Positions 51,990 through 60,488 of a DNA stretch of 64,000 bases are shown here, in pieces (positions within the stretch are counted from its first letter, which is position 1; each line of letters starts with the position of its first letter). Where the stretch lies: assembly GCA_022822665.1 (NCBI GenBank), contig JAJEAR010000030.1, positions 64,363 through 128,362 on the forward strand. Reading direction: 5' to 3'. Origin of the DNA: Alphaproteobacteria bacterium (GTDB lineage: Bacteria; Pseudomonadota; Alphaproteobacteria; Thalassobaculales; Thalassobaculaceae). Under the pieces are notes generated by a model that saw nothing but the letters and a program-made list of their open reading frames with translations, was not told the origin of the DNA and ran no database searches. A program made the translations under genes and the position numbers.

Positions 51990-53339
51990 ATGAACCTGGT
52001 CGAGACTGCTGCTGATGGTGCCGTTCCGATCGTCCCGGTGCTCGCGGGTGAACTGCCCGACGGGAACGGCTGGGCACGCGCAACGGGGTTCGAGGCCAGG
52101 CCGGGCGATTTCAGGTTCGTTCCCGACGAGGCCGGGAGCCTCGCCAGGGTTCTGGTCGGGCTCGACCCGTCCCGGAACATGTGGAGCCTCGCCGGGCTGC
52201 CGGCAAGCCTGCCCGAAGGCGACTACAGGGTGGACGCGCCCGGCCTCGATGCGCACCAGGCGACGCTGTGGTCGCTTGGCTGGTCGCTCGGCTGTTACGC
52301 TTTCGACCGGTATGCCGCGAAGCCCCGCCCCGGAGCGCGGCTCGTGGTGCCGGACGGCGTTGACCTTGCCGAGGTCGAGCGCTGCGCGTCAGGCATCGCG
52401 CTGGTCCGTGACCTCATCAATACACCGGCATGCGATCTCGGCCCGCGTGAACTGGCCGAAACAGCCCGGGCCGTCGCCGGGGACGCGGGCGCCTCGATCT
52501 CGGTAATCGAGGGGGCCGACCTGCTGGTTCACGACTATCCGAGCATCCACGCCGTGGGCCGGGCGGCGGCAAGGCCACCGTGCCTCATCGACATGCGGTG
52601 GGGCGAACCCGGGCATCCGGCCGTGACCCTCGTCGGCAAGGGGGTGTGCTTTGACAGCGGCGGGCTCGATATCAAGTCGGCTGCCGGCATGCTTCACATG
52701 AAGAAGGACATGGGTGGGGCCGCCCAGGTGCTCGGACTGGCACGGATGATCATGGGAGCCGGGCTGCCGGTTCGCCTCAGGGTCCTGATCCCGGCGGTGG
52801 AAAACGCGATTTCCGGAGATGCCTTCAGGCCGCGCGACGTGTTGCAGACCCGCAAGGGGCTGACCGTCGAGGTGGGCAACACCGATGCGGAGGGCCGGTT
52901 GATCCTGTCCGACGCGCTGGCGGAGGCCGCAAGCGAGCGGCCGGAGATGATTGTCGACTACGCGACCCTGACCGGAGCGGCCCGGGTCGCGCTGGGAGCG
53001 GACCTGCCGGCACTGTTCTGCAACGACGACACGCTTGCAGGAGAGATCCTGCGCAGCGGCGAGGAGCAGGAGGATCCACTGTGGCGGATGCCGCTTTGGC
53101 CCGGCTACCACAGCCACATCGACTCGAAGGTGGCGGACATCTCGAGCACCGGTACCGGCGGCCTGGGCGGCGCGATCATCGCGGCACTGTTCCTGGAGCG
53201 TTTCGTGCAGGAGGATATCGCCTGGGCCCATATCGATCTCATTGCCTACAACCAGGCCGACCGGCCGGGGCGGCCGGAAGGCGGTGAGGCTCAGGCCCTG
53301 CGAGCCGTCTACGGCATGATTCGCAGTCGGTTCGGCTGA
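51990..53339 (+). CDS. M17 leucyl aminopeptidase family protein
   Basis: ORF 51825..53339 trimmed to ATG 51990 (MNLVETAADG...). The catalytic motifs GKGVCFDSGGLDIK and NTDAEGRLILSDAL are present. Confidence 0.9.
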   Translation: MNLVETAADGAVPIVPVLAGELPDGNGWARATGFEARPGDFRFVPDEAGSLARVLVGLDPSRNMWSLAGLPASLPEGDYRVDAPGLDAHQATLWSLGWSLGCYAFDRYAAKPRPGARLVVPDGVDLAEVERCASGIALVRDLINTPACDLGPRELAETARAVAGDAGASISVIEGADLLVHDYPSIHAVGRAAARPPCLIDMRWGEPGHPAVTLVGKGVCFDSGGLDIKSAAGMLHMKKDMGGAAQVLGLARMIMGAGLPVRLRVLIPAVENAISGDAFRPRDVLQTRKGLTVEVGNTDAEGRLILSDALAEAASERPEMIVDYATLTGAARVALGADLPALFCNDDTLAGEILRSGEEQEDPLWRMPLWPGYHSHIDSKVADISSTGTGGLGGAIIAALFLERFVQEDIAWAHIDLIAYNQADRPGRPEGGEAQALRAVYGMIRSRFG

Positions 53340-53593
53340 GCCGCCCGGGTCATCAGTACCCGAGCGCGGGGTCCACCAGGTTATCCGGAAGCCGTCCGGC
53401 GGCGACCCGCCTGATCGCGGCCGCAACCTGGTCCAGCGCGGTCGCCGGGTTGGTCTGGGCGGAGACATGCGGCCAGACCCGTACCGCCGGGTGGGCCCAG
53501 TATGCGTGTTCCGGCGGCAGGGGCTCGGTGTGGAACACGTCGAGTGCCGCGCCGGCAACCTGGCCGCTGTCGAGTGCTGCGAGCAGGTCCTCG
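53154..53593. repeat. Left copy of a 440-bp direct repeat (3' end of the M17 peptidase gene + intergenic + 3' end of the ghrA-like gene)
   Basis: My base-by-base alignment to 59357..59796 found 7 mismatches in 440 nt at a constant offset of 6203 nt. Confidence 0.95.
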
Positions 53594-53650
53594 ACAATCC
53601 CGCGGTCGGGAAGCCGCGCCCAGAGATGGCGCGGGCGGCACACGGCATGT
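53353..53650 (-). pseudogene. Truncated copy of the 2-hydroxyacid dehydrogenase (ghrA-like) gene at 59556..60488
   Basis: The last 80 codons are near-identical to the full gene. Bases 53594..53650 then resemble 60001..60050 (20 identical nt, then 19/24), which implies a ~204-bp internal deletion. No N-terminal half is present. Confidence 0.85.
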
Positions 53651-53797: not shown

Positions 53798-54583
53798 CTA
53801 CTGGTACCTTTCGCCTATTGCTACGGAGCCCGCATCGCTCGCTACCAACAGTTCTCGCCAAAATCTCTCCAACTTACTGCGACGTTTAGGTCCCAGCGGC
53901 GAGCGCGCTGGATCATGTAGGCGACCTACCCCGAAAACCACCACGGGGACACCTGACACCTGAGGAACCAAGTTCAATTCTTTTACCGTTGCAATCATCG
54001 ACTTGAAGCTACCACGAGAGATCATTGGCCATGGAAAGATTAGCGAATTCTCTAGTAAATCCGAAAACACGACTACTCTGGATAGTCCACCCGAATAGTA
54101 AAGAGCTGTTACACTGGCTAGCGTCTCTACGATTGCTGATCGTGGATACTTCTCATGCTCCAATAATACGACTCGAAGCTTGCTCGCCAATCCAGACCGA
54201 AAGTCGATTCGATCAGAGCGCGCCAACCCGCCCCTACAGGTGCTAAAGAGCCACGAGGCTATTCCCTCTTCGGGGCATCCCGGGTAACAGCTATCGAAAA
54301 TCTTGTCCGACTTTGTCCTGTCATCGGTAATTGTATGAACTATGAGTCTATCGCCTATGTTGAGATCTTCATAGAGTTTCGTGAGGCCTTCCGCAAGCAT
54401 TTCGCGATCGATAGCGTCATAAAAGGTTGTCCTGTCGACTATTAATAGTGTTGTCTTGTCACTAAACTCGCAATACTGGTTGCGGGCTTCGGCATGTTCC
54501 CAAAGCAAGACCAGTAAAACAAGTGCAACAGCGGACAGCACTGTCTGAGTGCATTGTAATTTACCCACAATGTTATGTCGCAT
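53798..54583 (-). CDS. Exported/membrane-anchored vWA-like (Rossmann-type, no MIDAS motif) protein of unknown function
   Basis: This is a 261-codon ORF in AT-richer DNA. It has an N-terminal hydrophobic anchor or signal (TQTVLSAVALVLLVLLWEHAEA). The strand pattern is TLLIVDRT / DRLIVHTI / SAIVETLASV / RVVVFSDLLEN / VPVVVFGVG. Four Cys lie in the exported part. The start overlaps the upstream stop by 11 nt. Confidence 0.7.
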   Translation of the reverse strand: MRHNIVGKLQCTQTVLSAVALVLLVLLWEHAEARNQYCEFSDKTTLLIVDRTTFYDAIDREMLAEGLTKLYEDLNIGDRLIVHTITDDRTKSDKIFDSCYPGCPEEGIASWLFSTCRGGLARSDRIDFRSGLASKLRVVLLEHEKYPRSAIVETLASVTALYYSGGLSRVVVFSDLLENSLIFPWPMISRGSFKSMIATVKELNLVPQVSGVPVVVFGVGRLHDPARSPLGPKRRSKLERFWRELLVASDAGSVAIGERYQ

Positions 54584-55844
54584 GAAGTTCCTTAACGATT
54601 ATCTCGGGATTTGGCGTCACAAAGCACTCCGGTACGTCCTCACCGTTTCGAGCCGATCTGTTGCCTTTCTGGTAAGCCAAAAGCCGTAGAGCGACTATTT
54701 CTGATACCATTCCCAGAATTTCAGGCCTACGAGCTTCGATCATCTGTAACTTGTTTCTCACCCTCTCTATTTCCTCTTCCGTCTGGTCTAGTTGTCGGTC
54801 GAGGTAATTGATGCGCCGATCATGCTCCGTAGACAAGATAGTTGCTCTCTTCTGGAACGTTTCTTCAATCTTATGCATGCGCTTTTGAATTCGAGCCCGT
54901 TCTTTGGTAACCTTCTCATAATCCGGATGGGGATCATGTCTCATATACGCGGCCACCATTCCAACCAAAAATATAAGGATATTGATTACAAGCAGCATAA
55001 ATCCCGCGGTACCCAGTTCAACGGACAGAGCTTCATCCGCTAAAGTACCAAGTGCCGACACATCCCCCTGAAGCAAAGTGCTAAATTCAGTTGTTTGTTC
55101 GCGCTCCAATAGGTTGACATAGCTTTGTCTTAGTGCAGCGATAAAGTAGATTGTAGTGCCCACGACAACAAAGGTAATGGCGATGCCAACGTAGTGAAAG
55201 ATCTTGGAGGATTTGCCGGACGAATGATCAATTTGTCGTAACCACAGTCCAGAGAAATGAGCGCAAAACATAATTATGAGGCCAATCACTAAGGCAATAA
55301 ATAGACTGATCGCGGGAGTCTCCCGAAAGAAAAATTCAAAAGCAAAACGGTTAACAGGAACTTCCGCCAAGGCTAACAGTGAAAGAAGCGGGAAATAAAT
55401 CCATACTATGGAAGTTCGCAAGGGTCTTTGGACTTCTAGCTCGATGCGCTTTTCGCTTTCCTTAGCGCCACTAAGACGGTCAGACAACTGTATATACCTT
55501 GCGGAATGACGTCCAATGCGCTGATCGAGAGCGTCAAGCTTTGCTTTCTTTGCTTCTATTACGTCGTCACGTTGGCGAACATAATGTTCATCTCGATTTC
55601 GTTCTTGAGCACTAATGTCGTTTTGAAGGTTTTCACGAATCGTCCGTAAGCCGAGTTCGAAGTCCCCCATGGTCCGGCGAGCATGTGCAATCACTTCGTG
55701 CTGGAAAGGGTACTCGGAGGCGGCGCTTGTCGGGAAGCCGCGTTTGCCGTCGTTCCTGCCGACATTCTCGTCGCGGCGTGCCATTCGTTCATTGAAAGCG
55801 CGATAGAAGGCTAGGGCCTTGGCTTCATGCTCGTCGTAGTTCAT
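54573..55844 (-). CDS. Coiled-coil / four-TM membrane protein of unknown function
   Basis: ORF 54573..56015 trimmed to ATG 55844 (MNYDEHEAKALAFY...), with GAGG 8 nt upstream. The product is 423 aa. It has a charged heptad-like N-terminal ~140 aa, TM segments at ~145-161, 177-202, 215-238 and 279-301, and a charged C-terminal ~120 aa (KVTKERARIQKRMHKIEETFQKRA...EEEIERVRNKLQMIEARR). Confidence 0.75.
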   Translation of the reverse strand: MNYDEHEAKALAFYRAFNERMARRDENVGRNDGKRGFPTSAASEYPFQHEVIAHARRTMGDFELGLRTIRENLQNDISAQERNRDEHYVRQRDDVIEAKKAKLDALDQRIGRHSARYIQLSDRLSGAKESEKRIELEVQRPLRTSIVWIYFPLLSLLALAEVPVNRFAFEFFFRETPAISLFIALVIGLIIMFCAHFSGLWLRQIDHSSGKSSKIFHYVGIAITFVVVGTTIYFIAALRQSYVNLLEREQTTEFSTLLQGDVSALGTLADEALSVELGTAGFMLLVINILIFLVGMVAAYMRHDPHPDYEKVTKERARIQKRMHKIEETFQKRATILSTEHDRRINYLDRQLDQTEEEIERVRNKLQMIEARRPEILGMVSEIVALRLLAYQKGNRSARNGEDVPECFVTPNPEIIVKELHAT

Positions 55845-56147
55845 CGTTCTAGCCTCGTGGGTGTCCTGTTTGAAAATGATAGCTTGCTTGACCGAATAGA
55901 TTGAATGAGATGATGTTAGGTGTCGTATCGACTGAGGGCAATAGGGTACTGTATCTGGGGCATGCTGTGGTGGCTTATGCCTACCGAACCGGGCTTGCGT
56001 CTGTTGCGACGGCACTGATGATGCCGTCGGACGCTGCGTCCGATCGGCGTGTCGGTGTGGGTGGTGTCTTGTGGCTGGAGGGGACTGAGATGGATTGCCA
56101 TCCGTGTCCTGAGGATTCGGTTCCGGGACCTGGCCGCTAGTGTCCTG

Positions 56148-57285
56148 TCATTCGTCAAATGTTGGATAGTGGCGTTTGAGTTTCACGCAGGCATCATCGG
56201 TGGCGAACTGCCAGTCCACCTTGGCGTGGATGCGGTCTCGGGAAGCCTGCCAGGCGGCGACTTCCCGGCGTAGCTCCTCGATGCAGTTGATGCGGCGGTT
56301 CAGGCACTGGCGGATCATGACATTGATTTCCACCTCGGCCACGTTCAGCCAACTGCCGTGTTTGGGGGTGTAGACGAACTCGAAGCGGTCCCACAGGGCC
56401 TTGGCCTCGTCCGGCGGGTAGCCCTCGTAGAGGGCTCCGGGTCGATGAGTGCTGAGATTGTCCATCACCAGTGTGATGGTGGTGGCATCCCGGTAGCGCT
56501 TGGCGATGTCGGCCAGAAACTGTGCCCAGTCGATCTTGGTCTTGCGCTCGGTCACCTTGGTCATGCGCCTGCCGGCCAGGGGCTCTGTAGTCATGAAGAC
56601 GTTGCAGGTGCCGCAGCGTCGATACTTGTAGTCTTCACGCGCTGACCGTCCCGGCGCCATAGCGACCGGTTGGCGTGTCTCGCCGATCCGCTGCCGAGGT
56701 GTTTCGTCAATGCAAACCACGGGGAAGGCGGCATCATAGGGGCGTCGATAGACATCGAGCACCTTCTCCATGGCCGCGGCGAAGGAGTCGGCGTTGCCTT
56801 GAGGAGGGATCACCCACCCGATCCGCTGCCATGGCTTGAGGCGGTTTTTTTAGGACCCGCCGCACCGTCTCGTGCGACACGGCATTGATGTAGCCAAGCT
56901 CGACGACGCGGTCGGCCAGCAGCCTCAACGACCATTGCGCGTGACCCTCGGGCGGTTCGCCACAGCTCAAGGCCACCAGGCGCGCCTCGAAGGCGCCGTC
57001 GGCCTTTCGCATGTAGGTGGGACGACGTCCCTGCCGGCCACCCAGCGCCGCCTCGAGACCCTCTTCCACGAAACGCTTCTTCACCCGGTCTACCTTGCGC
57101 ATGCTGATGCGCAGAATCCCGGCAATGACTTCCCCAGTCACCTGACGTTCGTTGAATGCGCCTTCGTCGCAGTTGAGCAGGATCAGGGCGTTGATCACCT
57201 TCTGCGACAGGTGCGAACCCTTGGTCGTGATGTCCGAAAGTTCTTCCCGTTCCGCCTCGTCCAGGGTCACCACATAGCGCTTCAT
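56148..57285 (-). CDS. IS630-family DDE transposase, encoded in two overlapping frames (HTH part 56845..57285, DDE part 56148..56852)
   Basis: The N-terminal frame reads MKRYVVTLDEAEREEL...RRVLKK. The second frame continues NRLKPWQRIGWVIPPQGNADS...CIDE...VMDNLSTH...GSWLNVAEVE. The junction lies in an A8 run. Confidence 0.85.
56845..56852 (-). other. A8 homopolymer at the junction of the two transposase frames (possible programmed frameshift site or an indel)
   Basis: The plus strand reads gcgg-TTTTTTTT-agg. The frame switch needed to join the HTH and DDE parts maps exactly here. Confidence 0.6.
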
Positions 57286-57618
57286 GCTCCGACCTCCGTC
57301 CCGAAAGGACGGATAGTCTAGCATAATTCGTACGACACATCATAGTTGACATGACACTAGGGCCGACTGATGAAGGACACCGACTTGCTGAAGCGCCTTG
57401 TACCGCATTCTTGTTTGAATTGTCATGGTCCCTTTCATCGATCGCCGCCTTGGGACGGCGCCATGGCCGGAAAGTACAGCACGAGGAGTTCTGCCGCCAG
57501 AACACCGCTCAGTTGCGGTTCGCGATCATCGTGTGGTTGCTGGCATTGCTTCTGCCAAAGGGTATCCTGTGGCGGGAATCCAGACCCTGTCCGGGCAGGA
57601 TCGAACGACACCGGATGG

Positions 57619-58186
57619 CTACACATGGTGTGTCTCCGAAGCGACCGTCGAGTGCCGGTACCGCGCCGCACAGAAGGCCGATACCGGTCCCAGGGGCGTC
57701 CCGCGCCGGCGTTCGGATACCGAACATCGTCGCAGTATTAGCCCCGCGCTGCTCAAGGCTGTGCGGTAAGTCTCCGATGCCGAATGATGCGAGCCGTGGG
57801 TCAGGTTCGGGTGATCCGTCTGGCCACGAGCCAGGCACGAGAGTGCCCGGGCGCGCCACGACCGGACATCGACATGCCCGCAAGCCACACAGGTCTGGCT
57901 GGTATGGCGAGGATCGACCGCAGTCACCCAGTGTGCTCTTGTACTCTTGGTTCTGCGCGGGTTGCCTGAGTCGGTGGCAAGTGTCTCACGGTTCAGTACC
58001 GGCTCTTTGGCGTTTGTTCGCGCTTTGTGTCATGTGGAGCGGCTGCAGGTCCTCGATGACGATGGTGCTGGTCGCGTTCGCAAGTTCGCGACTGGTCCGG
58101 TGATGACAGTTGCGACGCACCATCGCGATCTGGCGCTTGGCCCTGCGCAGGTGACCGCCGTAGCGCGTCAATCTGGGTGAGACCAC
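57619..58186 (-). pseudogene. tnpB: tnpB (IS200/IS605- or IS607-family RNA-guided nuclease) remnant, N-terminally truncated and frameshifted
   Basis: ORF 57986..58186 holds ...RRNCHHRTSRELANATSTIVIEDLQ (RuvC-II-like region). ORF 57619..57927 holds VDPRHTSQTCVACGHVD (the zinc-finger context typical of TnpB). The two pieces are in different frames, and the upstream part is replaced by the IS1595 remnant. Confidence 0.7.
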
Positions 58187-58194
58187 GGAGTCTC

Positions 58195-59356
58195 AGGTTG
58201 ATTGACGCGCTGCAAGAGACCGATGAGTTGACGTGGCAGGTGCTGGAGGCCCAACTTGTTCAGGCGTATCAGCCTCTGCTGAATGTGCAACATCGCTAGT
58301 AGGCATGGTATCGTCTTCCAGCTATGTGGTTTGGGAGGTTCGCTGCCTTTCTAGCTTCGCCCCGTCTGGTTCCCGCTGCGGGGCATTGCGATTTCTACGG
58401 TTCAGCAATCCGGATGGTATCCAACATTTTGTTGCTACGGAAATTCTCGGTAATCTTCACATGCGAAGCATCAAAGAAGGCCATACATGCCGATCCGATT
58501 GAGCGCTTGGCTGCCGATCGGGAGGGATAACCCTGACTGCTGCGGGCTATAATAGCACCGTGAGGCGAGCAGCCTTACGTTGTGCCGCCCGGCGAACTCT
58601 TGCACATAGCGATCCAGATGCCTCGGCGACAGCTTGTGGAACGTGCCCGTGTGGCTGCGCTTCAACATCGACCAGAAACTCGCCATGCCGTTCGTGTGCG
58701 TCAGCTCATTCACGTAGTACCCGGCCCTGTGATTGACTGCCCAATGGGCCAAGTCGCTCTCAACGCCGCGATAGTGTCTGTCCTGGCCTCTTTGGAGGGT
58801 TGCGCCCTCTTGGGTGATCTCCAAGGCGAAGCCTTGTGATATCTCTCTGTTCGTGTTGATAATGGCTTCTGCGTGGTCTCCGTTCGTGTCGTAGTCGTTG
58901 ATGCCGATGATGGCCATTTTGCTGACACCGCCGCGCTTGGCGCTGGCCTCGTAGAGCTCCTTGCGTTGCGCGATGCTCATGGTCTGGGGATTTCCGCTCG
59001 TGTAGGTCTCGTCGACTTCGACCGGTCGGTTAAACTGTTAATCATCGGTAACCGCTTAGGCCTCGCGTGTTCGGTGCAGCACGAACGTCGCCGTCAGCTG
59101 CGAAATGGCGATCTCCCGTTGCAGTTTCTCGGACGAGATGGATTTGAAGCTCGTGACGCAGAGGTAGACGGCGATGGCCCACTTGCCGAGCGGAATCTTC
59201 GACGCTTGCAAGGCGTTGCCTGTATTCGCGCTGAAATAGGACGGACAGCGCGGTGCGCCAGTAGAGCATTTTCTTGTAGCTGGCGGGACGGGTGTGGCGG
59301 CTGCCGCAATTCAAACAGAACCGCCCGTCCGGCCAAATAGGTCTCTTGAATCAGGC
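58195..59356 (-). mobile_element. Decayed IS1595-family (ISXO2-like) element
   Basis: Transposase pieces lie in three frames with in-frame stops. These are WPDGRFCLNCGSRHTRPA..., then ..FSANTGNALQASKIPLGKWAIAVYL...FVLHRTREA*, then ORF 58471..58980 with THTNGMASFWSMLKRSHTGTFHKLSPRHLDRYVQEFAGRHNVR. The ends share CAAGAGACC / GGTCTCTTG (58216..58224 vs 59340..59348). Confidence 0.75.
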
Positions 59357-59542
59357 ACCGGCGGCCTGGGCGGCGCGATCATCGCGGCACTGTTCCTGGA
59401 GCGTTTCGTGCAGGAGGATGTCGCCTGGGCCCATATCGATCTCATTGCCTACAACCAGGCCGACCGGCCGGGGCGGCCGGAAGGCGGTGAGGCTCAGGCC
59501 CTGCGAGCCGTCTACGGCATGATTCGCAGCCGGTTCGGCTGA
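59357..59542 (+). pseudogene. 3' fragment (last ~61 codons) of the M17 aminopeptidase gene, duplicated
   Basis: The translation ...TGGLGGAIIAALFLERFVQEDVAWAHIDLIAYNQADRPGRPEGGEAQALRAVYGMIRSRFG* equals the C-terminus of 51990..53339 apart from I->V. There is no upstream coding continuation. Confidence 0.9.
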
Positions 59543-59796
59543 CCCGCCCGGGTCATCAGTACCCGAGCGCGGGGTCCACCAGGTTATCCGGAAGCCGTCC
59601 GGCGGCGACCCGCCTGATCGCGGCCGCAACCTGGTCCAGCGCGGTCGCAGGGTTGGTCTGGGCGGAGACATGCGGCCAGACCCGTACCGCCGGGTGGGCC
59701 CAGTACGCGTGTTCCGGGGGCAGGGGCTCGGTGTGGAACACGTCGAGTGCCGCGCCGGCAACCTGGCCGCTGTCGAGTGCCGCGAGCAGGTCCTCG
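59357..59796. repeat. Right copy of the 440-bp direct repeat
   Basis: See 53154..53593. It starts exactly where the IS1595 remnant ends. Confidence 0.95.
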
Positions 59797-60488
59797 TCCA
59801 CGATATGGGCACCGCGGGCGGCATTGATCACGAAGGCGCCTCGGGGCAGCCGGTTCAGCGTGTCGCGGTTGATGATGCCGCGGGTCGACGGGGTAAGCGG
59901 CAGCAGGCAGCACAGGACATCGGTCCGCGCCAGGAAGTCGGAGAGCTGGCCGCTCCCTGAATACACCTCCACGCCTTCGACCTGGCGCGCCGTCCTCGCC
60001 CATCCCGCGGTCGGGAAGCCGAGTCCCGAGATCGTGCGGGCGGCATGAAGTCCGAGTGCGCCCAGGCCCATGATGCCGACCCGGCGTTCCGAGGTCTCCG
60101 GCGGAGGCAGCACGCGCCACCGGTGCTGTCGGGCGAGCGCGTCGTACTCCGGGCCCTGACGATGGAAGTACAGCAGGTTGAGCAGGATCCACTCGGTCAT
60201 GGATTGCGACATCCACGGATCCACCAGTCGCATGATCGCGATGTCGCGTGGCAGGTCGGGATCGAGGAACAGGTGATCGACACCCTGTCCGAGCGAACAG
60301 ATGCAGCGCATGCCGGTCATCCCCGCGTAGCTGCCGGGCGGCAGGTCCCACACCATCGCAAACTCGATCTCTCCGGGATCGCCGATGTCCGGCCAGACCC
60401 GGAAGTCCAGCCCGGGTATCCGTGCCGCGAGACCGTCCCTCCAGGCATCGGGCGAGGCGAGCGCATCATGAAACATCACCACCGGCAT
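59556..60488 (-). CDS. D-isomer-specific 2-hydroxyacid dehydrogenase (glyoxylate/hydroxypyruvate reductase A-like)
   Basis: It has an NAD motif (VGIMGLGALGLHAA) and the catalytic region NAARGAHIVDEDLLAALDSGQVAGAALDVF. The start is either MPVVMFHDAL (60488) or 60518. Confidence 0.85.
   Translation of the reverse strand: MPVVMFHDALASPDAWRDGLAARIPGLDFRVWPDIGDPGEIEFAMVWDLPPGSYAGMTGMRCICSLGQGVDHLFLDPDLPRDIAIMRLVDPWMSQSMTEWILLNLLYFHRQGPEYDALARQHRWRVLPPPETSERRVGIMGLGALGLHAARTISGLGFPTAGWARTARQVEGVEVYSGSGQLSDFLARTDVLCCLLPLTPSTRGIINRDTLNRLPRGAFVINAARGAHIVDEDLLAALDSGQVAGAALDVFHTEPLPPEHAYWAHPAVRVWPHVSAQTNPATALDQVAAAIRRVAAGRLPDNLVDPALGY

What the first reader, a model, noticed from the sequence alone, without database searches (positions are those of the whole stretch)
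53798..55844. AT-richer two-gene cassette: coiled-coil/4-TM membrane protein coupled to an exported MIDAS-less vWA-like protein (candidate undescribed system)
Two long ORFs (423 and 261 codons) sit in DNA that is clearly AT-richer than the host. Two 60-nt lines I counted inside gene A gave 32/60 and 26/60 G+C, against 47/60 for a cobN line. Stop and start overlap by 11 nt (ATGCGACATAA), so the genes are probably co-translated. Protein A has a ~140-aa charged heptad-like N-terminus, then four TM helices with a ~40-aa external loop between TM3 and TM4, then a ~120-aa charged coiled-coil tail. Protein B has an N-terminal anchor or signal, four Cys in the exported part and a beta-alpha-beta strand pattern like a vWA/Rossmann fold, but no DxSxS MIDAS motif. 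I cannot assign either protein to a family by eye. The pair sits in a mobile-element-rich insertion flanked by repeats. A multi-TM coiled-coil protein paired with a single-pass protein carrying a periplasmic domain is reminiscent of membrane effector/sensor pairs in phage-defence islands and of stator-like A/B complexes. That comparison is inference only.
Basis: partly seen in the sequence, partly recalled or inferred. Interest (0 to 1): 0.88.

Follow-up and report, generated by a model that had tools for sequence, protein, structure and literature searches.

The report
Undescribed membrane–periplasm two-gene envelope module
Two overlapping genes in a foreign, AT-rich insert encode an inner-membrane protein with no known relatives and a secreted von Willebrand-A-like partner. 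The pair is always found together in about 90 bacterial genome and metagenome loci, but its function is unknown and a role in phage defence is not shown.

Summary
On the minus strand, gene A (54573-55844, 423 aa) and gene B (53798-54583, 261 aa) overlap by 11 nt. They lie in DNA of 48% G+C against about 66% around it, inside an IS-rich insert flanked by 443-bp direct repeats.

- **A:** four transmembrane helices and long cytoplasmic helices. It has no Pfam, NCBIfam, PADLOC or PHROG family and no fold match in PDB or BFVD.
- **B:** a Sec-exported periplasmic protein with a von Willebrand A (vWA) fold, four invariant cysteines and a degenerate metal-binding (MIDAS) site.
- **Linkage:** wherever the sequence allows a test, A is followed directly by B, usually with a coupled junction. 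This holds in all 47 testable genome loci of 49, in all 20 testable metagenome loci of 21, and in remote plasmid relatives.
- **Origin:** most lineages carry the pair at native G+C in housekeeping neighbourhoods. Only the window's subclade looks recently transferred.
- **Partners:** extended operons add periplasmic proteins (Sel1 repeat proteins, a trypsin-like protease, LpoB/DUF1425, OmpA).
- **Rejected or unsupported:** the stator analogy fails, because B has a cleavable signal peptide rather than a conserved anchor helix. Defence-island enrichment is weak.

Best reading: the core of an undescribed envelope complex whose function is untested.

The parts
54573..55844 (-). Gene A: 423-aa inner-membrane protein. 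Cytoplasmic helical N-domain (1-145), four TM helices, acidic periplasmic loop (about 240-278), and a cytoplasmic tail with a 90-residue helix.
   Evidence: ORF. Hydropathy and charge distribution. AlphaFold2 pLDDT 82.5. Homologues start at the same Met. No family or fold match.
53798..54583 (-). Gene B: 261-aa exported periplasmic protein with a vWA-type alpha/beta fold.
   Evidence: ORF. AlphaFold2 pLDDT 84.7, pTM 0.79, with vWA strand/helix order. Foldseek top hits are all vWA-type, E = 2.6e-5 to 1e-3. No sequence-family hit.
54573..54583 (-). 11-nt overlap ATGCGACATAA: B start codon to A stop codon. Translational-coupling junction.
   Evidence: Sequence. In roughly 44 of 54 homologous loci the junction lies between -11 and +2 nt, mostly -11, -4, -1 or 0.
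54485..54583 (-). B signal peptide (residues 1-33, ...EHAEA|RNQYC), predicted to be cleaved by signal peptidase I.
   Evidence: Basic n-region, uncharged h-region and an AxA-type site just before the conserved YC motif. The same layout occurs in 52 of 52 homologues, and 46 of 52 pass a simple signal-peptide rule. No dedicated predictor was available.
54416..54436 (-). B residues D50-R-T-T-F-Y-D56: degenerate MIDAS-like loop after strand beta1.
   Evidence: D50, T52 and D56 are invariant in the close family. The loop lies at the C-terminal end of beta1. It is lost only in the Burkholderiales subgroup, whereas D175 is invariant in all 33 sequences.
54942..55409 (-). A membrane domain (residues 146-301) with conserved polar residues E161, N165, R166, H196, R239 and N288.
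   Evidence: N165 and H196 are invariant across 111 members that are 19-59% identical to the window protein. E161, G188, A195, G199, R239, N288 and G295 are conserved in at least 90%.
54915..54941 (-). A motif R302-HDPHPDYE-310 at the cytoplasmic end of TM4.
   Evidence: Invariant in 22 homologues. D304 is invariant and H303 is conserved in at least 90% of 111 members. A recognisable HDE[DN]P.[FY] version occurs in the remote plasmid relatives.
53900..55950 (.). Low-G+C segment (0.42-0.59 in 150-nt windows, mostly below 0.52) that coincides with the two genes.
   Evidence: Pair 0.48 against flank 0.66.
53151..53593 (+). Left copy of the 443-bp direct repeat (3' end of pepA plus the 3' end of a 2-hydroxyacid dehydrogenase gene) bounding the insertion.
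   Evidence: blastn, 98% identity over 443 nt. The duplicated ORF ends are visible.
59354..59796 (+). Right copy of the 443-bp direct repeat.
56148..57324 (-). IS630-type transposase in two overlapping ORFs (HTH part and DDE_3 part), directly upstream of gene A. Context, not part of the module.
   Evidence: Pfam DDE_3 at 7.8e-31 and HTH_32 at 5.1e-16.

Best explanation
Genes A and B are the co-translated core of a previously undescribed proteobacterial cell-envelope module.

**Shown.**
- A is an inner-membrane protein with both termini in the cytoplasm. It has four TM helices carrying invariant polar residues and a long cytoplasmic helical bundle built from its N- and C-terminal parts.
- B is exported by Sec, loses its signal peptide, and folds in the periplasm into a disulfide-stapled vWA-type domain. 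The face that normally binds a metal ion and ligand is conserved.
- The two genes are inseparable across Alpha-, Beta- and Gammaproteobacteria.

**Inferred.**
- B docks, probably through its MIDAS-like face and a divalent cation, onto the conserved acidic periplasmic loops of A (NRxAFExFFxExP and the Glu-rich TM3-TM4 loop).
- B then acts as the periplasmic binding or sensing subunit.
- A relays that state across the membrane. The relay would use its conserved intramembrane E/N/H/N network and the juxtamembrane RHDPHPDYE motif to reach the cytoplasmic helical stalk.
- Lineage-specific periplasmic partners (Sel1-repeat adaptors, a trypsin-like protease, LpoB/DUF1425 lipoproteins, an OmpA-type peptidoglycan binder) plug into this core.

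The window copy belongs to a low-G+C subclade. It arrived by horizontal transfer in an IS-rich insertion.
For: **Linkage.**
- A is directly followed by B on the same strand in all 47 testable loci of the 49 species-representative genome loci. The other two contigs end just after A.
- Searching from B finds A directly upstream in all 20 testable loci of 21 metagenome loci.
- Junction overlaps of -11, -4, -1 or 0 nt predominate.
- Remote plasmid relatives (22-24% identity) also have a B-like secreted protein directly downstream: hhalign probability 95% with E = 2.8e-8, and 65% with E = 6e-5.

**Topology.**
- Four conserved hydrophobic segments, basic flanks on the N- and C-terminal sides, and an acidic TM3-TM4 loop.
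- B has signal peptides throughout the family and four invariant Cys.

**Fold.**
- B matches vWA-type structures only, with the canonical secondary-structure order.

**Conserved sites.**
- N165, H196 and D304 are invariant, and E161, R239, N288 and H303 are conserved in at least 90% of 111 diverse A proteins.
- D175 is invariant, and D50 and T52 are nearly so, in B.

**Envelope partners.**
- A Sel1+Trypsin_2 gene lies directly upstream of A in 6 marine loci. A Sel1 protein lies downstream of B in 3 of the marine loci, and a weaker Sel1-like protein does so in the Burkholderiales loci.
- DUF1425 and LpoB follow in the Burkholderiales operon. A secreted OmpA-family protein accompanies the pair on plasmids.

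**Resident status.**
- Pair G+C equals flank G+C in the Burkholderiales, Arenicellales, Niveispirillum, Geminicoccus and Acetobacteraceae clades, and synteny is clade-specific.

**Selection.**
- Purifying selection acts on both genes.
Against: - Docking of B on A is therefore inference from genetic linkage.
- No phenotype, expression data or ligand is known.
- The MIDAS-like site lacks its third serine and is absent in the Burkholderiales subgroup, so metal-dependent docking cannot be universal.
- A's conserved intramembrane polar residues would fit a channel, transporter or membrane enzyme as well as a signal relay.
- Accessory genes differ between lineages, and most loci have none.
- Some loci lie in defence-type or mobile islands.
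Confidence: 0.45

Rival explanations
1. The pair is an anti-phage or abortive-infection module. Periplasmic B senses phage attack on the envelope, and A then acts as a membrane effector or recruits cytoplasmic effectors through its long helical stalk, with a logic like that of Zorya.
For: - The window copy and its subclade are low-G+C cargo in variable regions with IS elements, toxin-antitoxin genes and transposases.
- L058 is an integrase-bounded island with a methyltransferase plus NotI-like enzyme, an AAA_15/SMC_N ATPase and HicB.
- L087 has an OLD-like AAA_21/DUF4435 ATPase upstream and an SNase downstream.
- L084 has an HTH-Peptidase_M78 regulator.
- The Burkholderiales operon ends with an HTH-WYL-WCX regulator.
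- Plasmid relatives sit near a thermonuclease and DUF6119.
Against: - No PADLOC model hits A beyond coiled-coil noise, and none hits B.
- Among 133 nearest neighbours of 36 dereplicated loci, only 14 PADLOC families match, each with 1-2 members. The commonest neighbours are IF-2/EF-Tu-type GTPases, NusA, PheT and sigma-70.
- Most clades carry the pair at native G+C in clade-conserved housekeeping synteny.
- No relative was found in 2.9 million viral contigs or 50,697 phage records.
- No effector domain (nuclease, NADase, etc.) is a constant partner.
Confidence: 0.17
2. A is an ion channel, transporter or membrane-embedded enzyme. Its conserved E161/N165/H196/N288 and HDPHPDYE residues bind a cation or substrate. 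B is a periplasmic accessory that delivers a metal or substrate or gates the pore.
For: - Polar residues inside TM helices and a His/Asp-rich juxtamembrane motif stay invariant across members that are 19-59% identical to the window protein.
- vWA domains bind divalent cations at the MIDAS face (established knowledge).
- D175 is invariant in B.
Against: - No sequence or fold similarity to any transporter, channel or enzyme.
- The large cytoplasmic helical bundle is unusual for simple transporters.
- No metal-homeostasis genes recur next to the pair.
Confidence: 0.2
3. The pair is a stator-type 5:2 motor with a periplasmic vWA force transducer, like the TolQ-associated vWA proteins proposed in PMC12204202.
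For: - The gene logic is the same: a multi-TM inner-membrane protein plus a periplasmic vWA protein.
- A TPR-like (Sel1) gene co-occurs in some lineages.
- OmpA-type peptidoglycan-binding proteins with ZorB/MotB-like C-terminal domains accompany the plasmid relatives.
Against: - A has no MotA_ExbB/TolQ match in Pfam for itself or for 111 relatives. No such fold appears among the Foldseek hits.
- A's topology places the cytoplasmic domains at the two termini, unlike MotA or ExbB.
- B's N-terminal hydrophobic segment is variable, has no conserved Asp or His, and precedes an AxA cleavage site.
- The plasmid OmpA proteins also start with signal peptides.
Confidence: 0.04

Closest known systems
TolQ-associated periplasmic vWA 'force transducers' (two families proposed in Mol Biol Evol 2025, PMC12204202)
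   Same: A periplasmic vWA-fold protein is genetically coupled to a multi-TM inner-membrane protein. It occurs in Proteobacteria, a TPR-type gene often co-occurs, and the function is unknown.
   Different: There the membrane partner is a TolQ/ExbB homologue. The vWA protein is tethered by a conserved helix, either with an SHLS motif or as a TolR-like helix with a proton-binding Asp. Here A has no TolQ/ExbB/MotA similarity, and B has a variable, cleavable signal peptide.
Canonical vWA / integrin I domains (Pfam VWA families; vWF A1/A3, integrin alpha I, Sec23/24 trunk, TFIIH p44)
   Same: B's predicted fold and secondary-structure order match. Foldseek gives E = 2.6e-5 to 1e-3, with target-normalised TM-score up to 0.55. 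Asp, Thr and Asp occupy three MIDAS positions.
   Different: No sequence-level match to any VWA model or PDB chain. The DxSxS motif is reduced to DxT[TS]x. B also has extra invariant features: four Cys, CxPGCP, SDLLENS, PWP and GR.H.
McaA/McaB of Magnetospirillum magneticum AMB-1 (PMC9512821)
   Same: A periplasmic vWA domain works with cytoplasmic and membrane components across the inner membrane, in an alphaproteobacterium. There the vWA domain and its MIDAS site determine localisation.
   Different: McaA carries the vWA domain, the TM helix and the cytoplasmic tail in one protein with an intact MIDAS. It acts in magnetosome positioning. There is no homology to A, so this is an analogy only.
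Zorya ZorA/ZorB anti-phage system
   Same: An inner-membrane protein with a long cytoplasmic helical extension is paired with a periplasm-facing partner. OmpA/MotB-type peptidoglycan-binding proteins accompany the remote plasmid relatives and hit ZorB models through that shared domain.
   Different: No ZorA or ZorB model hits A or B. B has no TM helix and no peptidoglycan-binding domain. No ZorC/D-like effectors are present, and most loci are not in defence islands.
Bat (BatA-E) aerotolerance-type operons (recalled from general knowledge, not tested)
   Same: Membrane-associated vWA proteins are encoded together with TPR-type repeat proteins in envelope-related operons.
   Different: Bat operons include a MoxR AAA+ ATPase and a DUF58 protein, and their vWA proteins carry their own TM helices and match Pfam VWA models. 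None of these features is present here.

Membership tests
vWA superfamily (protein B) | Alpha/beta Rossmann-like fold with the order beta1-alpha1-beta2-beta3(anti)-alpha2-alpha3-beta4-alpha4-beta5-alpha5-beta6 | tested here: met
   The DSSP order of the AlphaFold2 model matches. The Foldseek matches listed (50 shown; 54 have E <= 1e-3) are vWA-type folds such as Sec23/24 trunk, p44, vWF A1/A3, integrin I and ArnAB, with probability 0.96-1.0. TM-scores are moderate, 0.28-0.44 normalised to the query.
vWA superfamily (protein B) | Significant match to a VWA sequence profile | tested here: not met
   No Pfam or NCBIfam hit at E <= 1. No PDB sequence hit. hhalign against the integrin alphaM I domain gave probability 0.2%. 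No precomputed Pfam domain on any of 35 relatives.
vWA superfamily (protein B) | Complete MIDAS (DxSxS + Thr + Asp) | tested here: inconclusive
   D50, T52, S149 and D175 occupy the corresponding loops, but the third Ser position is variable (F/M/T/N/K). The D50/T52 pair is absent in the Burkholderiales subgroup.
MotAB / ExbBD / TolQR / ZorAB 5:2 motors | A subunit homologous to MotA/ExbB/TolQ (Pfam MotA_ExbB) | tested here: not met
   No such hit for A at E <= 1. None among 111 diverse relatives at E <= 1e-4. No ZorA hit in PADLOC. No motor protein among the listed Foldseek hits.
MotAB / ExbBD / TolQR / ZorAB 5:2 motors | B subunit with a conserved N-terminal TM helix carrying a protonatable Asp | tested here: not met
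   B's N-terminal segment is not conserved, has no invariant acidic residue, and is followed by an AxA-type cleavage site in all homologues.
Known anti-phage defence systems (PADLOC-DB v2) | Match of the components to a defence-system model | tested here: not met
   B has no hit. A has only coiled-coil-region hits to LmuB, JetA and similar at E >= 4e-4. Newer catalogues such as DefenseFinder were not available.
Known anti-phage defence systems (guilt by association) | Most family members lie next to known defence genes | tested here: not met
   Among 133 nearest neighbours from 36 dereplicated loci there were 14 PADLOC families, each with 1-2 members. Housekeeping families dominate. A few island contexts exist. 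This census was small and not a formal defence score.
Sec-exported periplasmic proteins (protein B) | N-terminal signal peptide with a signal peptidase I site; disulfide-forming Cys in the mature part | tested here: met
   Pattern analysis: 52 of 52 have a small-x-small site 1-7 aa before the conserved YC, and 46 of 52 pass a simple n/h-region rule. Four Cys are invariant. SignalP and DeepTMHMM were not available.

The most novel reading that the evidence does not exclude
A-B is the core of a new class of trans-envelope signalling machine. A secreted vWA-like sensor reports a periplasmic event (envelope damage, phage entry or a peptidoglycan or protein ligand) to a structurally novel four-TM protein. 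That protein's long cytoplasmic helical stalk propagates the signal. Lineage-specific output or adaptor modules (Sel1-protease, OmpA, LpoB-type lipoproteins, nearby nucleases or ATPases) attach to the core. This would be functionally parallel to Zorya or TolQ-vWA systems but evolutionarily unrelated to them.
Probability: 0.15. Interest if true: 0.85.

Novelty: categorically new. Interest (0 to 1): 0.6.

Why it matters
If the pair forms a complex, it defines a new membrane-protein fold family. The family has at least 175 sequence clusters at E <= 1e-30 and no Pfam, NCBIfam or PDB relative. It would also show a new way of coupling a periplasmic vWA domain to the cytoplasm, distinct from the 5:2 motors.

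The invariant residues are ready-made mutagenesis targets: E161, N165, H196, N288 and RHDPHPDYE in A, and D50, T52, D175 and four Cys in B. Several cultured carriers would allow genetics: Geminicoccus harenae, Roseomonas nepalensis, Dankookia sp. P2, Roseicella aquatilis and strain AAP38.

The recurring periplasmic partners (Sel1 adaptors, a trypsin-like protease, LpoB, OmpA) point to envelope biology, an area where many trans-envelope systems remain uncharacterised. If instead it is a defence module, it would add a periplasm-sensing type.

At present it remains a well-delimited 'conserved unknown' with no phenotype.

Tried and rejected
**Searches that found nothing.**
- Pfam, NCBIfam, PADLOC and PHROGs scans of A and B: nothing for B at E <= 1, only coiled-coil noise for A.
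- Pfam on 111 diverse A relatives: no family.
- PDB sequence searches with four profiles: noise only.
- Foldseek of A against PDB and BFVD: best E = 0.026-0.038, long coiled coils only.
- Viral contigs and phage records: no relative.
- tRNA and Rfam scans around the insertion: nothing.
- Promoter and terminator scan: no more hits than in shuffled sequence.
- DNA comparison of the window cassette with L004, L005 and L009: only the coding regions align, so no transposon ends or att sites were found.

**Searches that could not run.**
It was repeated with A1.

**Readings rejected.**
- Stator or 5:2 motor: rejected on the membership tests.
- CAAX/Abi-type or other intramembrane protease: the motif spacing does not fit and Pfam gives no hit.
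- Thioredoxin-like redox protein for B: CxxxC in a vWA fold is not a CxxC thioredoxin motif.

**Neighbour association judged uninformative.**
- IF-2/BipA/NusA neighbours are clade-specific synteny, not a functional link.
Full report
**1. Observation**

The two ORFs are real and lie on the minus strand. A is 54573-55844 (423 aa from the ATG) and B is 53798-54583 (261 aa). A's ORF extends upstream to a GTG at 56015, but all homologues begin at the same Met as the ATG start.

The junction reads ...CTTCATGCGACATAACATTG.

G+C is 0.47-0.49 in the 54-56 kb bins against about 0.65-0.70 in most other 1-kb bins. The trough spans about 53.9-55.95 kb, which is essentially the two genes.

The cassette lies in an insertion bounded by a 443-bp direct repeat at 98% identity (53151-53593 and 59354-59796). 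The repeat duplicates the 3' ends of pepA and of a 2-hydroxyacid dehydrogenase gene. The insertion also holds three mobile-element remnants:
- an IS630-type transposase (56148-57324);
- a TnpB fragment (57619-57927);
- an IS1595 fragment (58471-58980).

No tRNA or Rfam element is nearby.

**2. Protein A**

Hydropathy shows four segments conserved in all homologues, at about 146-164, 177-195, 219-237 and 281-299. The flanks before TM1 and after TM4 are basic, and the TM3-TM4 loop is acidic (2 K/R against 7 D/E). This indicates that both termini are cytoplasmic.

AlphaFold2 (22-sequence alignment, pLDDT 82.5) predicts helices 46-109, 115-138 and an uninterrupted 309-398, all with pLDDT above 90.

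A has no detectable relatives of known function:
- Pfam, NCBIfam, PADLOC and PHROGs give only low-scoring coiled-coil noise.
- PDB sequence profiles give nothing.
- Foldseek finds no structure with E below 0.026 in PDB or BFVD.

An exhaustive HMM search of 1.84 billion representative proteins found 175 representatives at E <= 1e-30 and 530 at E <= 1e-10. Nearly all are full length, at about 410-450 aa. None of 111 diverse members carries a Pfam family relevant to the fold.

Across those 111 members, which are 19-59% identical to the window protein, N165, H196 and D304 are invariant. E161, G188, A195, G199, R239, N288, G295 and H303 are conserved in at least 90%. In closer relatives the motifs RPLR, EVPVNRxAFExFFxExP, AHxxG and RHDPHPDYE are invariant. 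Conserved polar residues therefore lie inside the membrane and at both membrane faces.

**3. Protein B**

AlphaFold2 (pLDDT 84.7, pTM 0.79) gives an N-terminal helix followed by an alpha/beta domain whose element order is that of a vWA domain. Foldseek against PDB returns only vWA-type folds: Sec23/24 trunk, TFIIH p44, vWF A1/A3, integrin I domains and ArnAB. E-values are 2.6e-5 to 1e-3, with target-normalised TM-scores up to 0.55. At the sequence level there is no match to any family or PDB chain.

All homologues begin with a basic n-region and an uncharged stretch of 11-23 residues. A small-x-small site follows, 1-7 residues (mostly 2-3) before a conserved [DNKE][YF]C motif. All 52 sequences show the site, and 46 of 52 pass a simple signal-peptide rule.

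Four Cys (C38, C99, C103, C116) are invariant in 33 diverse sequences. I conclude that B is a cleaved, soluble periplasmic protein with structural disulfides, not a membrane-anchored one. This is inference from sequence patterns, since no dedicated predictor was available.

The MIDAS is degenerate rather than absent. D50 and T52 (after beta1), S149 (alpha2-alpha3 loop) and D175 (after beta4) occupy the canonical loops, but the third Ser is not conserved. D175 is invariant in the whole family. D50 and T52 are lost only in a Burkholderiales subgroup.

**4. The pair is an obligate unit**

A scan of one genome per GTDB species found 49 loci. They come from:
- Alphaproteobacteria: Acetobacteraceae, Geminicoccus, Niveispirillum, Roseomonas, Dankookia and Roseicella;
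- Betaproteobacteria: Limnohabitans and other Burkholderiales, and Ferrovum;
- Gammaproteobacteria: Arenicellales.

In every locus with sequence downstream of A, which is 47 of the 49, B follows directly on the same strand. The other two contigs end there.

Searching metagenomes with B instead returned 21 loci. A lies directly upstream in 20, and the last contig starts inside B.

The junctions are overwhelmingly -11, -4 (ATGA), -1 or 0 nt, which points to translational coupling.

Against the 78%-identical L004 copy, dN is 0.136 for A and 0.256 for B, with synonymous sites saturated. A few copies are decayed (L005, L007, L046).

Distant A-like proteins (22-24% identity) occur on conjugative plasmids of Rhizobium, Sinorhizobium, Novosphingobium and Agrobacterium. 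They keep the 4-TM layout and an HDE[DN]P.[FY] motif. In the two plasmids inspected (L061, L062), they too are followed by a secreted protein whose N-terminal half matches the B profile. The hhalign values are 95% probability with E = 2.8e-8, and 65% with E = 6e-5.

**5. Genomic context**

A neighbour-joining tree of A, annotated with G+C, shows that pair and flank G+C agree within about 0.05 in five clades: Burkholderiales, Arenicellales, Niveispirillum, Geminicoccus and Acetobacteraceae. The tree clades follow taxonomy, and synteny is clade-specific (nusA-infB in Acetobacteraceae; nadC and a purM-like gene in Arenicellales).

Only the window's subclade (window, L001-L004, L009, L006/7, L059) stays at 0.46-0.56 G+C whatever the host, which ranges from 0.50 to 0.74. 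Three of these cassettes (L004, L005, L009) sit directly downstream of pheT. The window copy is thus a recently transferred member of a family that is mostly resident.

I took a census of 133 nearest neighbours from 36 dereplicated loci. It is dominated by housekeeping families and gave only 14 PADLOC families, each with 1-2 members.

A minority of loci are island-like:
- L058: integrases, a methyltransferase plus NotI-like enzyme, an AAA_15 ATPase and HicB.
- L087: an OLD-like ATPase and an SNase.
- L084: an HTH-Peptidase_M78 regulator.
- L006: a PhdYeFM antitoxin and a transposase.

No relative exists in viral contigs or phage records.

**6. Recurrent accessory genes are all envelope proteins**

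- Six marine loci have a Sel1-repeat plus Trypsin_2 protease gene directly upstream of A on the same strand. Three of the marine loci have a Sel1-repeat protein directly downstream of B.
- Burkholderiales have the operon [secreted 229-269 aa]-A-B-[468-515 aa, weak Sel1]-DUF1425-LpoB-[401-475 aa]-[HTH-WYL-WCX regulator].
- The plasmid relatives add a secreted OmpA-family peptidoglycan-binding protein.

Together with B's export, this places the module's business end in the periplasm.

**7. Mechanism**

Shown:
- the topology, export and fold of the two proteins;
- their strict linkage and coupled junctions;
- the conserved sites;
- the periplasmic accessory partners.

Inferred:
- B docks on A's conserved acidic periplasmic loops through its MIDAS-like face.
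- A relays or gates through its intramembrane polar network and the RHDPHPDYE motif to the cytoplasmic helical bundle.

I give this envelope-complex reading 0.45. The rivals are a channel, transporter or enzyme role for A (0.20), an anti-phage module (0.17) and a stator-type motor (0.04).

**8. Comparison with known systems**

The closest described logic is the TolQ-associated periplasmic vWA 'force transducers', which often co-occur with a TPR gene (PMC12204202). Membership fails on both defining features. A is not TolQ/ExbB/MotA-like, and B lacks a conserved tether helix or Asp.

McaA/McaB (PMC9512821) and Zorya are analogies only. B belongs to the vWA superfamily at fold level but not by any sequence criterion.

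**9. Verdict**

The 'undescribed system' reading is supported. The vWA guess is supported at fold level, and the 'MIDAS-less' and 'anchor' details are corrected. The stator analogy is rejected, and the defence reading is possible but not supported by most contexts.

No known kind of system fits, so I rate the pair categorically new, with the caveat that its function is entirely untested. Interest is moderate to high (0.6). It is a cleanly delimited, strictly conserved two-protein module built around a membrane protein with no known relatives, but it has no phenotype yet.

Noticed in passing
window 53151-53593 and 59354-59796 (plus 53587-53640 / 59992-60045): The roughly 5.7-kb insertion is bracketed by a 443-bp direct duplication of host DNA at 98% identity. 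This leaves a truncated second copy of the 2-hydroxyacid dehydrogenase 3' end on the left and of the pepA 3' end on the right. The pattern suggests integration by single-crossover recombination of a circular element carrying that host segment, rather than transposition.
   Followed up: partly
window 56148-57324 (-), 57619-57927 (-), 58471-58980 (-): The IS630-type transposase is split into two overlapping ORFs (HTH part and DDE_3 part). There is also a short TnpB/Cas12f-like TNB-domain fragment and a truncated IS1595 (ISXO2-like) transposase. All are IS debris between the cassette and the right repeat.
   Followed up: partly
L004 10001-12047, L005 2774-4502, L009 9935-12029: In three different high-G+C alphaproteobacterial contigs (flank G+C 0.67-0.74), the low-G+C cassette (0.47-0.51) sits directly downstream of pheT. 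Its A proteins are only about 54-78% identical to the window copy. Either pheT-3' is an insertion hotspot, or the low G+C is maintained over long vertical descent.
   Followed up: partly
L045 9245-16772 (also L038, L041-L043, L048, L049, L051): In Burkholderiales (Limnohabitans-type MAGs), A and a divergent B lacking the D50/T52 loop are embedded in a tightly packed 8-gene operon. It includes DUF1425 (YcfL-like), LpoB, three unknown secreted proteins and a terminal HTH-WYL-WCX regulator.
   Followed up: partly
L075, L080, L081, L082, L085, L086 (upstream of A); L074, L079, L085 (downstream of B): Marine metagenome lineages have the arrangement [Sel1 repeat + trypsin-like serine protease]-A-B-[Sel1-repeat protein]. 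This suggests a periplasmic protease and adaptor attached to the core pair.
   Followed up: partly
L061 5668-11005 (Rhizobium etli pRetIE4771b); L062 4655-8752 (Novosphingobium resinovorum pSA2): Remote relatives on conjugative plasmids form clusters of an A-like protein, a 412-433 aa secreted protein with a B-like N-terminal half, and a secreted OmpA-family protein. Neighbours include a thermonuclease and DUF6119 in Rhizobium, and His-Xaa-Ser radical SAM maturases (hxsB/C) in Novosphingobium. All the cluster genes except the OmpA-family one are annotated 'hypothetical protein'.
   Followed up: partly
L058 1-15148: One homologue lies in an integrase-bounded island. The island holds an N6_N4 methyltransferase plus NotI-like enzyme, an SMC_N/AAA_15/AAA_23 ATPase, AlpA and a HicB antitoxin. 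This is a defence- or mobile-island context, unlike most other loci.
   Followed up: no
L046 9812-12008; L005 2774-3727; L007 8701-10011: These are decayed copies of the pair. L046 has frameshifts in both genes, L005 has an N-terminally truncated A, and L007 has an in-frame stop in A. The module is therefore sometimes lost by pseudogenisation.
   Followed up: no
window 55901-56140 (+): A 79-aa ORF lies on the opposite strand between IS630 and gene A. It is called as a gene in the identical metagenome contigs but has no Pfam hit and lies in the G+C transition zone, so it is probably spurious.
   Followed up: partly
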